DNA of 64,000 nt from a virus: IMG/VR virus record IMGVR_UViG_3300035670_000026, positions 85,818 through 149,817 of that record; one strand, written 5' to 3'. Below, piece after piece: positions 2,953-26,515 of the stretch (position 1 is the stretch's first letter; each line of letters opens with the position of its first letter). The notes under the pieces were generated by a model. The model was not told the origin of the DNA and ran no database searches. It worked only from the letters and a program-made list of their open reading frames with translations. A program made the translations under genes and the position numbers.

Positions 2953-4916
2953 TGCCTTTAATCGATTTAAAGACTGACTTAAAGTCCCTGCGATATGGGA
3001 AGGATACTCTTGGAGGAGGGTATAGTGGACAACCCTATATTCAAACTCCAATTCCTGATGGCTTTAATGATTTAGGACCACGTGAAGATTTTATTTTAAG
3101 GGGAGGTGTAAACGCAATAGAAGATTCTCTTACTGACGTTAAACGCTTAACTAAAATGTTTATAGACACTAAATCACCAAATGGTTTATTGTTTATAGCA
3201 AAGCAACAGCTATTATCTCGTACAGCAGTTCGTACTCAAACAAGTGGTATTTTAAATGAAGGTATTTATTCCCCATTAAATACATTAGCTCAAGCCGGTG
3301 TTATAGCGTTTGGTACACATTTAAATAAACAAGGTATAAATCCGTTTGCCCAAACGGGAGCATATGCTAACAACAATTCTTTATACGGTACTAGAGTTAA
3401 ATCTACTCAACCTAATATTGAAAACAGATTAGTTAAATTATATAATGCTGTATCTGGTTCTACAATAGGTAATGACAATGGTATAAAACTAAATGATGGT
3501 CAAAATGTTATAGTTTATACAGGAGGCCCTGGTTCTATTTTAGGAATAGGAAATACTGGTATAAGATATGTTGATAATATTAACAGAACAGGTTTAAATA
3601 ATTATCAAGCTAAATCCCCTACATTAAAACCTTATTTTGAAGGTAAAGCTCCAAAAATTGTAACTCCTGGAGATTATTTAAAAACTATAGGAGATGCTAT
3701 AAGTGATAAAGGTGTTTCTGGAAAATATTTAAGATTAACAGGAGATCGTTTAATTAATGCTTTTAATAGTGAAGGTAAACCTGTAGATGACTATTTTCAT
3801 AATGTATATGAACCTGCTACTGAAGGTAATACATGGCCTGTAAATACTCCTTTAATTTACGCTAATAATACCTTTACTTATAATCAAGAAGATATTATAT
3901 CTACTGAAAATAATGTAGGTAAATTAGACGGTAGTCCAAGAACTCAAGATTTTAGAGCTATTTTAAGAACTAAATTACAAGGTACTCAAAAGACTAAAGC
4001 AGAACAAACAGGCGCTACACCCGATGCTCCTAATTACAATACAAAAAACATAGAAAATAGAGTATTATTAGGAGACCCAGGTCAACGCTCAGGAAAAAGC
4101 TATGTTAATTATGAAAAAGGAGTTCAAACAATAAATGGATCTTCTATTTATTCTTCAATAGACATTGCTGGAATAGGATCATACCAACCAGGATTAGATA
4201 AAATTACATCTATTCCTGTATATAGAAGTGAAAATGTAGCTTCTGAAAAATATGTAAATGATTTAGTTAAATTTAGAATTGCTATTATAGATAATGATTC
4301 TCCTAATTTTAAAACATTCATACATTTTAGAGCATTTTTAGATTCAATGTCAGATTCTTACTCATCTACATGGAATGGATTTAATTATTTAGGAAGAGGT
4401 GAACAATTTTACACTTATGGTGGGTTTACTCGACAAATGTCATTATCTTGGACAGTTGTTGCTCAGTCAAAGCAAGAACTTATTCCAATGTATAAAAAAT
4501 TAAATTATCTTGCCTCATCACTTACCCCAGATTATAGTCCAAATGGGTATATGAGAGGTAATTTAGTACAATTAACAATAGGTGGTTATGTTTATGAACA
4601 ACCTGGTTTTATAACTGCTTTAACATATGATGTACCAAGTGAATCACCTTGGGAAATTGGTTTAGGTTCTAGTGAAGCTGGAAATGAGGATTCCTCAGTT
4701 AAGGAATTACCACACATGATTAAAGTAACAGGATTTAGCTTTACCCCAATCCAAAGATTTATCCCAAGACTTCAAAATAATACTTACGCATTTAATAATA
4801 ACACAACAGGAAGTGTTGAAGATGATTTTGGATTTGTAAGTACCTATGGTCCTGAAAGATATATTGCTCTAGCTAATGGTGCAAATACTGTAAATAATAA
4901 TTATGATAGTAATTAA
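2952..4916 (+). CDS. Putative baseplate / tail tube initiator protein
   Basis: 654 aa. C-terminal FRAFLDSMSDSYSSTW..YLGRGE..Y.GFTR pattern resembles tube-initiator proteins; follows the tape measure gene. Confidence 0.55.
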   Translation: MPLIDLKTDLKSLRYGKDTLGGGYSGQPYIQTPIPDGFNDLGPREDFILRGGVNAIEDSLTDVKRLTKMFIDTKSPNGLLFIAKQQLLSRTAVRTQTSGILNEGIYSPLNTLAQAGVIAFGTHLNKQGINPFAQTGAYANNNSLYGTRVKSTQPNIENRLVKLYNAVSGSTIGNDNGIKLNDGQNVIVYTGGPGSILGIGNTGIRYVDNINRTGLNNYQAKSPTLKPYFEGKAPKIVTPGDYLKTIGDAISDKGVSGKYLRLTGDRLINAFNSEGKPVDDYFHNVYEPATEGNTWPVNTPLIYANNTFTYNQEDIISTENNVGKLDGSPRTQDFRAILRTKLQGTQKTKAEQTGATPDAPNYNTKNIENRVLLGDPGQRSGKSYVNYEKGVQTINGSSIYSSIDIAGIGSYQPGLDKITSIPVYRSENVASEKYVNDLVKFRIAIIDNDSPNFKTFIHFRAFLDSMSDSYSSTWNGFNYLGRGEQFYTYGGFTRQMSLSWTVVAQSKQELIPMYKKLNYLASSLTPDYSPNGYMRGNLVQLTIGGYVYEQPGFITALTYDVPSESPWEIGLGSSEAGNEDSSVKELPHMIKVTGFSFTPIQRFIPRLQNNTYAFNNNTTGSVEDDFGFVSTYGPERYIALANGANTVNNNYDSN

Positions 4917-21900: not shown

Positions 21901-22776
21901 ATGGCAAAACATGTAGTAGTTAGTCTTAGCGGAGGGATGGACTCCTCAACATTGTTACTTCGTTGCTTAAAAGAGTACGATACAGTAACAGCACTTTCAT
22001 TTGATTATGGACAAAAACATAGAGTTGAACTTGAACGTGCTCAATCGTTAGTAGATTATTTGAATTCTAATTGTGAAGAAAATAATTGTTATGGGGGTTG
22101 TAAAGTAAACTACCGAGTTATTAAGCTCGATGGTTTAGTTGATTTACTTAATTCAGCACTCGTAACAGGTGGAGATGAAGTACCTGAAGGACATTATGCT
22201 GAAGAAAATATGAAAGCAACAGTTGTTCCTAATCGTAACAAAATCTTTGCTTCAATTACTCAAGCAGTTGCACTTTCAATTGCTGATAAAACAGGTGAAC
22301 CATGTGACATTGCAATGGGTATTCACGCGGGTGATCATGCAATTTATCCTGATTGTCGCCAAGAATTCCGTGATGCAGATGATGCAGCATTTAGAATTGG
22401 TAACTGGGGTTCTGAGAAAGTAGGTTACTTTACACCATATCTTGAAGGTGATAAATTTACCATTTTACAAGATGGAGAAGTATTGTGTAGTGAATTAGGA
22501 CTTGATTTTGATGAAGTATATTCTCGTACAAACACTTCATATAAACCAATTTATATTCCTTATCCTGAAAGTAAATCAAGAGTAGAAGAAACACTTAGAA
22601 CTAAATTTGGTGAATGGTATTCTGATTACAAATCAGCATCGTCAGTTGAACGTGTAGAAGCGTTTATTAAATTAGGTCGCCCTGATCCAGTAGAATATGC
22701 TGACGAGACCGGTCCTGTAACTTGGGAACATGTAGTAACAGAAGTATTTAAAGTACTAGAAAGTTATGAAAAATAA
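21901..22776 (+). CDS. queC: 7-cyano-7-deazaguanine synthase
   Basis: SGGMDS, FDYGQKH, VPNRN and YPDCR motifs. Confidence 0.93.
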   Translation: MAKHVVVSLSGGMDSSTLLLRCLKEYDTVTALSFDYGQKHRVELERAQSLVDYLNSNCEENNCYGGCKVNYRVIKLDGLVDLLNSALVTGGDEVPEGHYAEENMKATVVPNRNKIFASITQAVALSIADKTGEPCDIAMGIHAGDHAIYPDCRQEFRDADDAAFRIGNWGSEKVGYFTPYLEGDKFTILQDGEVLCSELGLDFDEVYSRTNTSYKPIYIPYPESKSRVEETLRTKFGEWYSDYKSASSVERVEAFIKLGRPDPVEYADETGPVTWEHVVTEVFKVLESYEK

Positions 22777-23329
22777 TCCTTTTAAACGTCTTCAAGAATT
22801 AGCAGGAATTATTACCGAAGAAAAACAAACATACGATTATGGTTGTGCTATGTTGTATTTTAATCTTCCAGAAATGAATAAAATCCATGATGCTATTAAT
22901 CCTAATGATGTTTATATTCAAGAGGGTGATCGCTCATTTGGATTTGAGACTGAACCACATTGTACTTTGCTTTATGGTTTACACGAGGGAGTAACAACAG
23001 AAGATATTGAAAAAGTATTAGATAAGTATACTTATTATACTTGTAAAGCACATAACGCCTCTTTGTTTGAGAATCCTGAGTTTGATGTTTTAAAATTTGA
23101 TGTTAAGGGGGATAATTTAAATGAGACAAATGCTGATTTACAACAATATCCATTTACTTCTAATTTCCCTGATTATCACCCACACATGACTATTGCTTAT
23201 TTGAAATCAGGTAGTGGAAAAAGATATGTTCAAATGCTTAAAGGTGTGGAATTTGATTTGGCACCTCAGTATGCTGTGTATTCAAAACCAAATGGTGATA
23301 AAGATAAAATCAATATTAAAATAGATTAG
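22766..23329 (+). CDS. 2H phosphoesterase, Acb1 / T4 57B-like
   Basis: Two HxT motifs, PHCTLLYG and YHPHMTIAY; N-terminal extension KRLQELAGIITEE. Confidence 0.75.
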   Translation: MKNNPFKRLQELAGIITEEKQTYDYGCAMLYFNLPEMNKIHDAINPNDVYIQEGDRSFGFETEPHCTLLYGLHEGVTTEDIEKVLDKYTYYTCKAHNASLFENPEFDVLKFDVKGDNLNETNADLQQYPFTSNFPDYHPHMTIAYLKSGSGKRYVQMLKGVEFDLAPQYAVYSKPNGDKDKINIKID

Positions 23330-25317: not shown

Positions 25318-25830
25318 ATGGGTAGTAAACAAGTATTATTTACTGAATTAGAATTACAAAACAAAGTAGGCGAACTTGCTTATAACATTAAAAAACAAAA
25401 ACATGATTTTCCTCCCGTGTTTATATGCGTTTTAAACGGCGCATTTATGTTTTTTACGGATTTAGTGAAGCGAATGGATGAATGCGAAATAGACTTTATA
25501 CGCGCGAAATCATACGAGGGAATTACACAGAGTACAGTCAAAATTACTAAATCTATTGAAATTGATATTTCAAGAAAAGATGTTTATCTTGTAGATGATA
25601 TTTACGATACAGGAGAAACAATGAAAGAACTTACTAACCACCTTAAATTATATAATCCTCGATCAATCACTCCAGTTACTTTATTTAAACGTTGGAGTGC
25701 AAAACATCCCGATTTAATTTATGGATTTGAATTGTATGATGAGGCCTGGCTTGTAGGTTATGGTTTAGACAATGAAAAAGGTCTCCAACGAAATCTTAAA
25801 CATATCCTTGGAATCCCAAGAGAAGATTAG
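25318..25830 (+). CDS. hpt: Hypoxanthine/guanine phosphoribosyltransferase-like protein
   Basis: VLNGAFMFFTDL, PRPP loop VDDIYDTGET and VGYGLD. Confidence 0.85.
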   Translation: MGSKQVLFTELELQNKVGELAYNIKKQKHDFPPVFICVLNGAFMFFTDLVKRMDECEIDFIRAKSYEGITQSTVKITKSIEIDISRKDVYLVDDIYDTGETMKELTNHLKLYNPRSITPVTLFKRWSAKHPDLIYGFELYDEAWLVGYGLDNEKGLQRNLKHILGIPRED

Positions 25831-25836
25831 TATATT
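25807..25836 (+). promoter_or_regulatory. Host-type promoter for the DIP1984-like cassette
   Basis: CTTGG-N15-TTAGTATATT. Confidence 0.65.
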
Positions 25837-25853
25837 ATATAAAAATAAAAGTC

Positions 25854-26282
25854 ATGAATGTATCTCAAGCATTAAAGCAAAAAAACAAATTAACTGTTGA
25901 ATTAAAAAAACAGTACCAAATTGCACAAAAATTTAATTCCCAAGAAGAAGGGAATATTAGACGTTATTCAGTGCAGGACGCATTGGATAAAGCTGCCGAG
26001 TTAACTATGGAGTTAACTGACCTAAAAACCAAGATCCACTTGGCAAACGCTCCTGTATACGATAAGATCTTTCGTATGGCTGAGTTAAAAGGCCGTATCA
26101 AGGAATTAAGAAAAATTCCAACGGAAGAAGGAAAAGCTGAATCACGATACAGTTCAGTAGTATCTGTAAAAGAAGTGGAAATTAATATTACCCAACTTGA
26201 TGAAATGGTCCAAACACTAGAAGCAAGAATTGAAGAAATTCAAGCTGAGTTGGACGTTCATAACGCAACAACCCAAATTTAA
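25854..26282 (+). CDS. DIP1984/DUF6847-like helical coiled-coil protein
   Basis: 142 aa; M.vsqAL start, N..EEG, L..LK..I..AN, RYS and terminal N.TT.I match my recollection of the family pattern. Confidence 0.65.
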   Translation: MNVSQALKQKNKLTVELKKQYQIAQKFNSQEEGNIRRYSVQDALDKAAELTMELTDLKTKIHLANAPVYDKIFRMAELKGRIKELRKIPTEEGKAESRYSSVVSVKEVEINITQLDEMVQTLEARIEEIQAELDVHNATTQI

Positions 26283-26284
26283 TT

Positions 26285-26479
26285 TGAGTAGGGAGTGATG
26301 ATGAATTAATTTTTGATGTCTTACAATTCTACTATGAGCCACATAGCGGATAAGTGATGATGATAAGGTTTATCCAACATCAAAATTTAAAAACTCAAAA
26401 CATCAATCCTCGCGCACTTCAATAAATTTAAACCTCTTTGAACAGGACTAAAATTATTGATTCTGACTCGCTCCCCTCA
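26285..26479 (+). ncRNA. Putative structured non-coding RNA downstream of the DIP1984-like gene
   Basis: 5' and 3' ends pair (26285-26310 with 26456-26479) with tandem GA/GA, several nested stems, and no ORF in the longest ORF-free gap of the region. Confidence 0.65.
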
Positions 26480-26485
26480 TTTTAA

Positions 26486-26515
26486 TTTGGATATTTTAAA
26501 TATCCTTTATATATT
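26486..26515 (+). promoter_or_regulatory. Host-type promoter for folE with palindromic spacer
   Basis: TTTGG-N15-TTTATATATT; inverted repeat GGATATTT-T-AAATATCC at 26489-26505. Confidence 0.65.

What the first reader, a model, noticed from the sequence alone, without database searches (positions are those of the whole stretch)
25807..26480. Self-contained cassette of a DIP1984-like protein and a roughly 195-nt structured RNA: candidate undescribed ribonucleoprotein system
Seen: a dedicated promoter (25807-25836), a 142-aa helical ORF, then an ORF-free stretch whose ends pair. TGAG 26285-88 pairs with CTCA 26476-79, GGGAGTGA 26291-98 with TCGCTCCC 26468-75, and GAATTAAT 26303-10 with ATTGATTC 26456-63. 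The last two helices are separated by UGAU/UGAC (tandem sheared G.A pairs in an AUGAUGA...CUGA, box C/D- or k-turn-like context). Nested stems: TTTTGATGT 26311-19/ACATCAAAA 26377-85, CTATG/CATAG 26332-46, GGATAAG/TTTATCC 26348-75, TCCT 26407-10/AGGA 26444-47, TTCAA 26418-22/TTGAA 26438-42. A new promoter for folE starts right after (26486), so the unit interrupts the que cluster as a module, and the ORF looks richer in C/G-ending codons than its neighbours. Knowledge: DIP1984/DUF6847 proteins have no established function that I know of. Inference: protein and cognate RNA act together, for example as a type III toxin-antitoxin-like pair, an RNA scaffold for an oligomer, or an anti-defence RNP.
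Basis: partly seen in the sequence, partly recalled or inferred. Interest (0 to 1): 0.88.

Follow-up and report, generated by a model that had tools for sequence, protein, structure and literature searches.

The report
Phage protein gene with partner RNA
Right behind a small helical-protein gene of unknown function, this uncultivated phage encodes a real, conserved, roughly 200-base folded RNA with a row of evenly spaced UCAA units. Gene and RNA travel together in every related phage locus I examined from the viral-contig collection, match no catalogued RNA family, and probably form an undescribed protein-RNA particle.

Summary
ORF 25854-26282 encodes a 142-aa protein with the DIP1984/DUF6847 fold (AF2 pLDDT 97; best PDB match 3KDQ, Z 12.9). 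The next ~200 nt (26283-26487) are a genuine structured RNA on the same strand. The gene is followed by an ORF-free gap of ~160-480 nt (mostly ~160-260) in 71 viral loci with 45-82% protein identity. Covariance models found a full-length RNA directly after the gene in all 53 IMG/VR loci tested, and in relatives down to ~32% identity. The models hit once per genome in six near-complete phage genomes and never elsewhere. Terminal stems, a hairpin and a long-range helix covary. G.U pairs outnumber A.C, which fits the + strand. The core is a GAU motif followed by 3-7 UCAA units spaced 7-8 nt apart. No Rfam family matches, including RAGATH-27. No neighbouring gene is conserved, but tRNA arrays and RNA-repair genes are recurrent neighbours. 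A conserved promoter lies upstream, and many relatives have a terminator after the RNA. A homodimer of the protein is predicted. The most likely reading is an undescribed ribonucleoprotein; its function is unknown. The type III toxin-antitoxin and box C/D readings fail. Earlier notes from this scan describe the same gene-plus-periodic-RNA pairing on other DNA. Their claim that it occurs in phage T5 was not recovered with my models.

The parts
25807..25836 (+). Promoter-like site ahead of the gene (TTGG ... TATATT)
   Evidence: Relatives carry TTTG(G)-N17-19-(G)TAtaTTTG at the same place, which fits the Bacteroidota -33/-7 type. Other lineages carry TTGACT-N17-TATAAT instead. The simple sigma-70 scan alone is at chance level.
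25854..26282 (+). 142-aa DIP1984/DUF6847-fold protein (three long helices plus a beta hairpin)
   Evidence: NF038048 gives E 1.4e-4, colinear but below the cut-off. Of 53 relatives, 41 hit NF038048 and 17 hit PF20935. AF2 pLDDT is 97. The best PDB match is 3KDQ: TM 0.82/0.77 and Z 12.9 over 140 residues. The family has 1130 clusters at 50% identity.
26283..26487 (+). Conserved structured RNA, core 26285-26479
   Evidence: Models R1 and R2 match it full length at 211 and 184 bits. It is the only significant hit in the 150-kb genome. No Rfam family matches.
26285..26298 (+). 5' arms of the terminal stems P0 (26285-88) and P1 (26291-98); partners at 26476-79 and 26468-75
   Evidence: P1 has 8 pairs, all showing changes on both sides across 46 sequences, with about 90% of cells paired. 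It is 100% paired on the MAFFT-only alignment.
26299..26302 (+). UGAU half of a symmetric 4x4 internal loop (partner UGAC 26464-67) with tandem G.A
   Evidence: GA is kept on both strands in at least 70% of 46 sequences. There is no 3-nt bulge in the window.
26303..26310 (+). P2 5' arm; partner 26456-63
   Evidence: All 8 pairs show changes on both sides, with 83% of cells paired.
26320..26346 (+). Conserved CUUACAA (26320-26) and hairpin P3 (26332-36/26342-46) with a GCC-containing loop
   Evidence: P3 covaries: CUAU/AUAG, CUG/CAG, CUAA/UUAG, CUUG/CAAG.
26349..26364 (+). GAU-repeat motif; also the 5' strand of long-range helix P4 (26354-57 and 26361-63)
   Evidence: GAU..GAU...GA-U is nearly invariant in 46 sequences. 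P4 pairs with 26410-13 and 26403-05 (82% and 93% paired, with UA/AU swaps, on the MAFFT alignment).
26380..26431 (+). Rail of U[C/U]AA units at 7-9-nt spacing, with one double-length gap (starts at 26380, 26388, 26396, 26403, 26419, 26428)
   Evidence: TRF reports period 8 x 4 copies. Across 46 RNAs, UCAA is 3.4-fold over composition, and CAA-to-CAA distances peak at 7-8, 14-16 and 22-23 nt.
26428..26441 (+). Hairpin P5 (UUAA/UUGA) with a CCUC-containing loop and the conserved AAA(A/C)CUC motif
   Evidence: 82-85% paired. CG/UG/UA variation at one pair.
26489..26505 (+). Weak terminator-like hairpin (GGAUAU/AUAUCC) followed by a U-rich tail
   Evidence: Read from the sequence. Several distant lineages carry a strong G+C-rich hairpin plus U tract at this place. 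The scan tool does not pick the window's hairpin.

Best explanation
The unit is one transcription unit: a promoter, a 142-aa DIP1984-fold protein gene, a ~200-nt RNA that forms the 3' part of the same transcript (perhaps cut free afterwards), and a terminator.

The RNA closes on itself through terminal stems P0-P1-P2, which flank a conserved tandem-G.A loop. Inside are a hairpin (P3), a GAU motif that pairs at long range (P4), a largely unpaired rail of 3-7 UCAA units spaced 7-8 nt apart, and a final hairpin (P5).

Inferred: the protein forms antiparallel dimers, and several copies dock on the evenly spaced units. The structured frame holds the rail in shape, giving a defined protein-RNA particle.

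The particle's function is unknown. Its recurrent placement in phage tRNA arrays and beside RNA-repair genes points to tRNA or RNA metabolism during infection.

Shown here: the RNA is real, its fold is conserved, its strand is +, and it is coupled to the gene.

Inferred: binding, stoichiometry and role.
For: Coupling of gene and RNA:
- An ORF-free gap of ~160-480 nt (mostly ~160-260) follows the gene in 71 loci, whatever the next gene or its strand.
- R2 finds full-length matches in 46 of 53 loci, all directly after the gene on the + strand and none elsewhere in 329 kb.
- R3 recovers the 7 loci that R2 missed and also finds the RNA after relatives of 32-36% identity.
- There is one significant hit per genome in six phage genomes of 150-321 kb, always at the gene.
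- No other gene is conserved next to it.

Structure:
- Covariation counts.

Strand:
- G.U versus A.C pairs are 50 vs 8 on the MAFFT alignment and 121 vs 50 on the model-fitted one.
- Terminators follow the RNA in many lineages.

Periodic units:
-.
- Units are somewhat more often unpaired than the rest of the RNA (0.58 vs 0.45).

Homodimer:
- ipSAE is 0.51 against a best control of 0.00. That mark was reached by 20 of 30 proteins solved as pairs of one chain and by 1 of 23 solved as single chains.
- The three runs agree in at least 100% of contacts, and partner pLDDT is at least 88.
- My own alignment was used, and the related 3KDQ crystal (4 chains) may be remembered by the model.

Module:
- A conserved promoter motif lies upstream.

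tRNA and RNA-repair context:
- tRNA genes lie within 2.5 kb on the same strand in 27 of 74 loci, from at least 6 RNA groups.
- A phosphoesterase-kinase-RNA ligase set lies upstream in three loci.
Against:
- The protein is not basic overall: mean net charge -0.25, with only helix 1 positive (+4.7).
- Part of the covariation comes from alignments fitted to the model.
- One distant homolog, in the 595-kb phage LR756511, shows no RNA.
- In the window's own genome the tRNA array is more than 40 kb away and there is no RNA ligase, so the tRNA link is not obligatory.
- Many tRNA-adjacent loci are related phages and are not independent events.
Confidence: 0.55

Rival explanations
1. The RNA is a cis-acting 3' UTR element of the protein's own mRNA. 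It could be a stabiliser against 3' exonucleases, or an operator through which the protein limits its own synthesis. No free-standing particle would exist.
For: The RNA starts 3-10 nt after the stop codon and no internal promoter is evident. A terminator follows the RNA in many lineages. It is always on the same strand and adjacent to the gene.
Against: A ~200-nt multi-helix fold with a periodic rail, conserved down to ~32% protein identity, is far more elaborate than known 3' stabilisers. In L151 a small extra ORF lies between gene and RNA, yet the RNA is kept. Autoregulation would still require protein-RNA binding, so it overlaps with the best explanation.
Confidence: 0.2
2. The RNA is a decoy or sponge for a host factor. 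Candidates are an RNA-binding protein, a ribonuclease or toxin that recognises UCAA-like sites, Rho (via spaced YC dinucleotides), or tRNA anticodon loops. The protein would be only a helper, or merely co-transcribed.
For: Periodic short units in a G-poor, partly unpaired tract. The neighbourhood often contains tRNA, RNA-repair and counter-defence genes, including an Acb1-like gene 2.5 kb upstream in the window. From my own knowledge, phage pseudo-ToxI is a precedent for an RNA decoy.
Against: The strict pairing with one protein family across phages whose promoters differ in type argues for a direct partnership. No candidate host factor was identified. Rho sites need neither a UCAA consensus nor closing stems.
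Confidence: 0.15
3. The RNA is a box C/D-like guide RNA, or the RNA antitoxin of a type III toxin-antitoxin pair.
For: UGAUGA and CUGA words lie near the ends, and there are sub-threshold Rfam snoRNA hits. A small gene sits next to a repeat-bearing RNA.
Against: The snoRNA scores are 10-20 bits against cut-offs of 35-135. The loop is symmetric and has no bulge. The box words are not conserved outside near relatives. There are no 34-36-nt tandem units. The RNA is downstream of the gene, not upstream. The protein is a helical bundle with no ToxN/AbiQ match.
Confidence: 0.02

Closest known systems
DIP1984 family / Pfam DUF6847 (PF20935; NCBIfam NF038048; crystal structure 3KDQ of Corynebacterium diphtheriae; often annotated 'septicolysin')
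   Same: Same fold: three long helices plus a beta hairpin (Z 12.9, 140 residues aligned, rmsd 2.4; TM 0.82). The weak HMM match is colinear, and most relatives match the family models.
   Different: The window protein scores 22 bits against a cut-off of 70, so it belongs to a distant phage branch. No function and no RNA partner are published for the family.
HutP with the hut terminator RNA, and TRAP with the trp leader (Bacillus)
   Same: A small protein of similar size is encoded directly upstream of its RNA target (as for HutP). The RNA carries short units at regular spacing, as expected for a symmetric oligomer (recalled from knowledge; periodicity shown).
   Different: The fold is unrelated (only 3KDQ matches). 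The units are UCAA at 7-8 nt, not NAG. The units sit inside a closed, covarying scaffold rather than overlapping a terminator. In several loci the next gene is convergent, so there is nothing downstream to antiterminate.
Ro60 (Rsr) with bacterial Y RNAs (YrlA), as in rsr-yrlBA-rtcBA operons
   Same: The RNA's 5' and 3' ends pair into a long stem with a conserved internal loop and enclose an effector module. It is encoded beside its protein gene. The neighbourhood holds RNA ligase or tRNA genes, and the system occurs in phages (context; Y RNA features recalled from knowledge).
   Different: No Rfam Y RNA or YrlA match. The partner is a 142-aa helical bundle, not a Ro/TROVE ring. No tRNA-like domain was found.
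Type III toxin-antitoxin systems (ToxIN, CptIN, AbiQ/antiQ)
   Same: A small protein gene lies next to a repeat-bearing non-coding RNA in a compact mobile cassette.
   Different: The RNA lies downstream, not upstream. The units are 7-8 nt rather than 34-36-nt pseudoknot units. The protein is not a ToxN/AbiQ-type RNase.
RAGATH-27 RNA motif (Rfam RF03100), named in earlier notes of this scan as the catalogued fragment of related RNAs
   Same: An orphan candidate RNA of unknown function. Earlier notes say it overlaps RNAs that follow DIP1984-like genes in other phages.
   Different: It has no hit at the cassette in the window's genome or in four related phage genomes. The best scores anywhere are 24 bits or less against a cut-off of 76.

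Membership tests
DIP1984 / DUF6847 protein family | Match to NF038048 or PF20935 above the curated cut-off | tested here: inconclusive
   The window protein gives NF038048 22.1 bits (cut-off 70), E 1.4e-4, colinear over 4-140 of the protein and 3-147 of 149 model positions. It has no Pfam hit. Of 53 relatives, 41 hit NF038048 (best E 5.6e-14) and 17 hit PF20935.
DIP1984 / DUF6847 protein family | Fold of the solved member 3KDQ | tested here: met
   The AF2 model has pLDDT 97. Foldseek gives TM 0.82/0.77. VIA-align gives Z 12.9, 140 residues aligned, rmsd 2.4; the next row has Z 8.8 over 65 residues.
Any Rfam 15 family | Covariance-model match at the gathering score | tested here: not met
   No hit in the whole window. 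None on the RNA in 20 diverse related loci. Only sub-threshold snoRNA noise with permissive filters.
RAGATH-27 (RF03100) | Model match at or near the cassette | tested here: not met
   No hit at the cassette in G000, G001, G002, G003 or G005. Best score anywhere is 24.3 bits against 76.1.
Box C/D sRNA | Terminal C (RUGAUGA) and D (CUGA) boxes forming a k-turn with a 3-nt bulge | tested here: not met
   In the window the loop is a symmetric 4x4, UGAU/UGAC. The box words are not conserved across groups; only GA/GA is. snoRNA models score 10-20 bits against 35-135.
Box C/D sRNA | Partner proteins L7Ae, Nop5 and fibrillarin | not tested
   The genome was not searched for them. The neighbours are 7-deazaguanine genes and PolB.
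Type III toxin-antitoxin | Tandem ~34-36-nt RNA repeats upstream of the toxin gene | tested here: not met
   TRF finds only a period-8 array of 4 copies, and it lies downstream of the gene.
Type III toxin-antitoxin | ToxN/AbiQ/CptN-type endoribonuclease | tested here: not met
   PADLOC gives only weak coiled-coil matches (LmuB, VakA). The fold is a helical bundle.
Y RNA / Ro60 module | Y RNA or YrlA model match, and a Ro60 (TROVE) gene nearby | tested here: not met
   No Rfam match. No gene other than the DIP1984-like one is conserved next to the RNA. Neighbours were not each scanned for TROVE.
HutP/TRAP-type repeat-binding antiterminator | Periodic short RNA units matched to a symmetric oligomer | tested here: inconclusive
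   Periodicity is shown and a homodimer is predicted. Higher oligomers and binding were not tested. No fold likeness to HutP or TRAP appeared in the lists.

The most novel reading that the evidence does not exclude
The particle engages tRNAs. The rail units UCA-A and UUA-A equal Ser and Leu codons followed by a purine, like a T-box specifier. In independent phage lineages the tRNA genes nearest to the cassette are the long-arm tRNAs Ser(UGA), Ser(GCU) and Leu(UAA). The RNP would line up or sequester several tRNA anticodon loops at once. That could protect phage or host tRNAs from anticodon nucleases, or feed them to the adjacent RNA-repair enzymes.
Probability: 0.07. Interest if true: 0.92.

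Novelty: categorically new. Interest (0 to 1): 0.8.

Why it matters
If the pairing reflects a particle, this is a widespread class of viral ribonucleoprotein that appears neither in RNA catalogues nor in the papers I could search. The protein family has 1130 clusters at 50% identity, and 340 viral contigs matched in one scan. It would give a first functional handle on the DIP1984/DUF6847 family, which has had a crystal structure since 2009 but no known role. It would also add a new kind of periodic RNA 'rail' recognised by a helical protein. Its recurrent place in phage tRNA arrays and beside RNA-repair genes suggests an unexplored layer of phage control over host or phage RNA. The cassette is small (about 700 bp) and self-contained, so it can be synthesised and tested directly.

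Tried and rejected
- Rfam gave nothing: at gathering score on the window, with permissive filters on the region, and on 20 related loci.
- The PDB sequence search gave only a weak 3KDQ match. The BFVD fold search gave only uncharacterised phage proteins.
- PHROGs and PADLOC gave no meaningful family.
- In cellular genomes, a scan of genome contigs with the protein found no relative, and the alignment was too variable for that scan. In plasmids there was one chance-level match. Whether bacterial DIP1984 genes carry this RNA was therefore not tested.
- Among GenBank phages, only two uncultured huge phages hold relatives, so no cultured host-phage pair is at hand.
- For phage T5, which earlier notes of this scan name, I found no hit with NF038048, with my protein profile, with RF03100, or with my RNA model. 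T5.081 plus the 719-nt 'RNAX' looked like a candidate pair but is unrelated to this protein family (hhalign probability 0.8%).
- A consensus fold of a mixed MAFFT alignment of 19 divergent RNAs gave no structure, because the stems were misaligned. The model-based alignment was needed.
- Rho-site and anti-Shine-Dalgarno-mimic ideas were considered and not pursued, because only CUC is conserved in the P5 loop.
Full report
**Setting**

The window is bases 85818-149817 of a 149.8-kb IMG/VR virus record that is 92% complete. Its folE gene is 71% identical in DNA to that of Cellulophaga and Flavobacterium phages.

The genes around the finding are queC, an Acb1-like phosphoesterase, queD, queE, a phosphoribosyltransferase, then the ORF in question, folE, a MazG-like gene and PolB.

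**The protein**

ORF 25854-26282 encodes 142 residues.

- It has no Pfam hit at the curated cut-off.
- It has a weak but colinear match to NCBIfam NF038048, the DIP1984 family: E 1.4e-4, 22 bits against a cut-off of 70.
- An exhaustive search found 1130 clusters (50% identity) at E <= 0.001, nearly all 140-150 residues long.
- Of 53 diverse members, 41 match NF038048 (best E 5.6e-14) and 17 match Pfam DUF6847.
- AlphaFold2 with that alignment gives pLDDT 97: helices at 3-27, 40-86 and 112-139, and a beta hairpin at 93-106.
- The only full-length structural match is 3KDQ, the DIP1984 protein itself: TM 0.82/0.77, and Z 12.9 with 140 residues aligned at rmsd 2.4, against Z 8.8 over 65 residues for the next row.

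I found no paper that gives the family a function.

**The RNA is real**

Three lines of comparative evidence support this.

1. Spacing. In 71 viral loci whose protein is 45-82% identical, the gene is followed by an ORF-free gap of about 160-480 nt, mostly about 160-260. This holds whatever the next gene is and whichever strand it is on.
2. Sequence and architecture. The gaps share:
   - a 5' end that pairs with the 3' end;
   - a hairpin;
   - a GAU-rich motif;
   - a run of UCAA units;
   - an AAAACUC motif;
   - in several lineages, a strong G+C-rich terminator immediately after.
3. Covariance models.
   - A model built from 11 near relatives found full-length matches in 35 loci.
   - Its successor found 46 of 53 loci, all directly after the gene on the + strand, with nothing else in 329 kb.
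   - A third model recovered the seven missed loci. It also found the RNA behind proteins only 32-36% identical to the window's, in contigs fetched independently.
   - In six near-complete phage genomes of 150-321 kb the model gives exactly one significant hit each, always at the gene.
   - Clustering of neighbouring ORFs shows no other conserved partner.

**Structure**

On a MAFFT-only alignment of 11 relatives, my 33-pair structure is 96.7% paired, against 37-49% when partners are slid. Seven pairs change on both sides.

On the 46-sequence model-fitted alignment it is 85.5% paired, against 64% in shuffles and 36-46% slid. There, 27 of 33 pairs change on both sides and the covariation score is 0.447 against 0.166. 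That alignment leans towards the model, so the MAFFT result is the safer one.

| Element | Coordinates | Result |
|---|---|---|
| Terminal stems | 26291-98/26468-75 and 26303-10/26456-63 | supported |
| Hairpin | 26332-46 | supported |
| UUUUGAUGU/ACAUCAAAA | 26311-19/26377-85 | not conserved |
| GGAUAAG/UUUAUCC | 26348-54/26369-75 | not conserved |
| UCCU/AGGA | 26407-10/26444-47 | weak |

It joins GUGA 26354-57 to UCGC 26410-13, and UGA 26361-63 to UCA 26403-05. It shows UA-to-AU swaps on an alignment not fitted to any structure.

G.U pairs far outnumber A.C (50 vs 8 and 121 vs 50). Together with the terminators, this places the RNA on the gene's strand.

The single-sequence folding energy is unremarkable (z about -2.8 on both strands).

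**The periodic rail**

Across 46 RNAs, UCAA is 3.4-fold over-represented. Distances between CAA words peak at 7-8, 14-16 and 22-23 nt.

In the window, units start at 26380, 26388, 26396, 26403, 26419 and 26428. TRF sees period 8 with four copies. The units persist in a relative with 45% G+C. They are somewhat more often unpaired than the rest of the RNA (0.58 vs 0.45).

**Box C/D and k-turn**

The loop between P1 and P2 is a symmetric 4x4 loop (UGAU/UGAC) with tandem G.A. The GA on each strand is kept in at least 70% of sequences. There is no 3-nt bulge in the window, and the Rfam snoRNA matches are far below threshold.

**A self-contained module**

Upstream of the gene, most lineages carry TTTG(G)-N17-19-(G)TAtaTTTG, which is the Bacteroidota promoter type. 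Other lineages instead carry TTGACT-N17-TATAAT and have strong intrinsic terminators after the RNA. The cassette therefore occurs in phages whose hosts probably use different promoter types. The plain sigma-70 scan of the window is at chance.

GC3 of the ORF is 0.287, against 0.14-0.22 for most neighbours.

**Context**

- tRNA genes lie within 2.5 kb on the same strand in 27 of 74 loci, from at least six RNA groups.
- In one phage the cassette sits inside a 24-tRNA array.
- In three of six complete genomes it is in or at the edge of the array. In the window's genome the array is far away.
- In three loci a phosphoesterase, a kinase and an RNA ligase lie directly upstream. The window's genome has no such ligase.
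- The link to tRNA and RNA repair is thus recurrent but not obligatory, and many of these loci are related phages.

**Mechanism**

A homodimer is predicted, antiparallel along helix 2.

- ipSAE is 0.51 against a best control of 0.00.
- That mark was reached by 20 of 30 known homodimers and by 1 of 23 proteins solved as single chains.
- The runs agree in at least 100% of contacts, and partner pLDDT is at least 88.
- My own alignment was used, and the 3KDQ crystal may be remembered by the model.

Evenly spaced short units are what symmetric oligomers such as HutP and TRAP read. I therefore take the most likely mechanism to be several protein dimers docking on the rail of a scaffolded RNA.

Two points count against this. 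The protein is not basic overall, and nothing here shows binding or expression.

**Relation to earlier notes of this scan**

Notes on at least 17 other genomes describe DIP1984-like genes followed by structured RNAs with units at 7-nt spacing, often among tRNA genes. They name RAGATH-27 and phage T5.

I reached the pairing, the periodicity, the tRNA context and the HutP/TRAP and Y RNA comparisons before reading those notes. Where I tested their claims for this subfamily, RAGATH-27 does not match. T5 gives nothing with the family HMM, my profile, RF03100 or my RNA model.

**Verdict**

This is a real, conserved pair of protein gene and RNA that is not in the catalogues or papers I could search. 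It is most probably a ribonucleoprotein, and its function is unknown.

Noticed in passing
L110:1-280 (IMGVR_UViG_3300042448_001702): A GOLLD RNA (RF02032, 208.8 bits, cut by the locus end) lies just upstream of the 24-tRNA array that also holds the cassette. L135:62-123 carries a freshwater-1 RNA beside tRNAs.
   Followed up: no
L099:237-2443 (also L100 and L113): A metallophosphoesterase (217 aa), an AAA_33 kinase (137 aa) and an RNA ligase with a PHA02142 OB domain (378 aa) sit directly upstream of the cassette. This looks like a split Pnkp/Rnl-type RNA-repair set.
   Followed up: partly
L151:2939-3127: A ~62-aa ORF with CxxC...CxxC (zinc-ribbon-like) is inserted between the DIP1984-like gene and its RNA. 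The RNA is still present at 3128-3322.
   Followed up: no
L172:2409-2700 (LR756511, 595-kb uncultured phage): A homolog of 33-36% identity has no detectable RNA downstream. A terminator-like hairpin and a short lysine-rich ORF follow instead.
   Followed up: partly
L191:20849-22052 (phage T5, NC_005859 40848-42051): T5.081 (144 aa, annotated tRNA amidotransferase) is followed by the 719-nt 'RNAX'. This is one of eight annotated stable RNAs of unknown function in the T5 tRNA region. The protein is unrelated to the family studied here (hhalign probability 0.8%).
   Followed up: partly
window 22766-23329: A 187-aa ORF with sub-threshold Acb1 (anti-CBASS) and 2H-phosphoesterase matches lies between queC and queD, 2.5 kb upstream of the cassette.
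   Followed up: no
G000:C1:3895-9439 (outside the window): The phage carries 26 tRNA genes in one array near the left end of the record, including Ser(UGA) and Leu(UAA).
   Followed up: partly
window 26489-26505: The hairpin GGAUAU/AUAUCC with a U-rich tail lies right after the RNA, ahead of folE. It is A+U-rich and the terminator scan does not call it.
   Followed up: no
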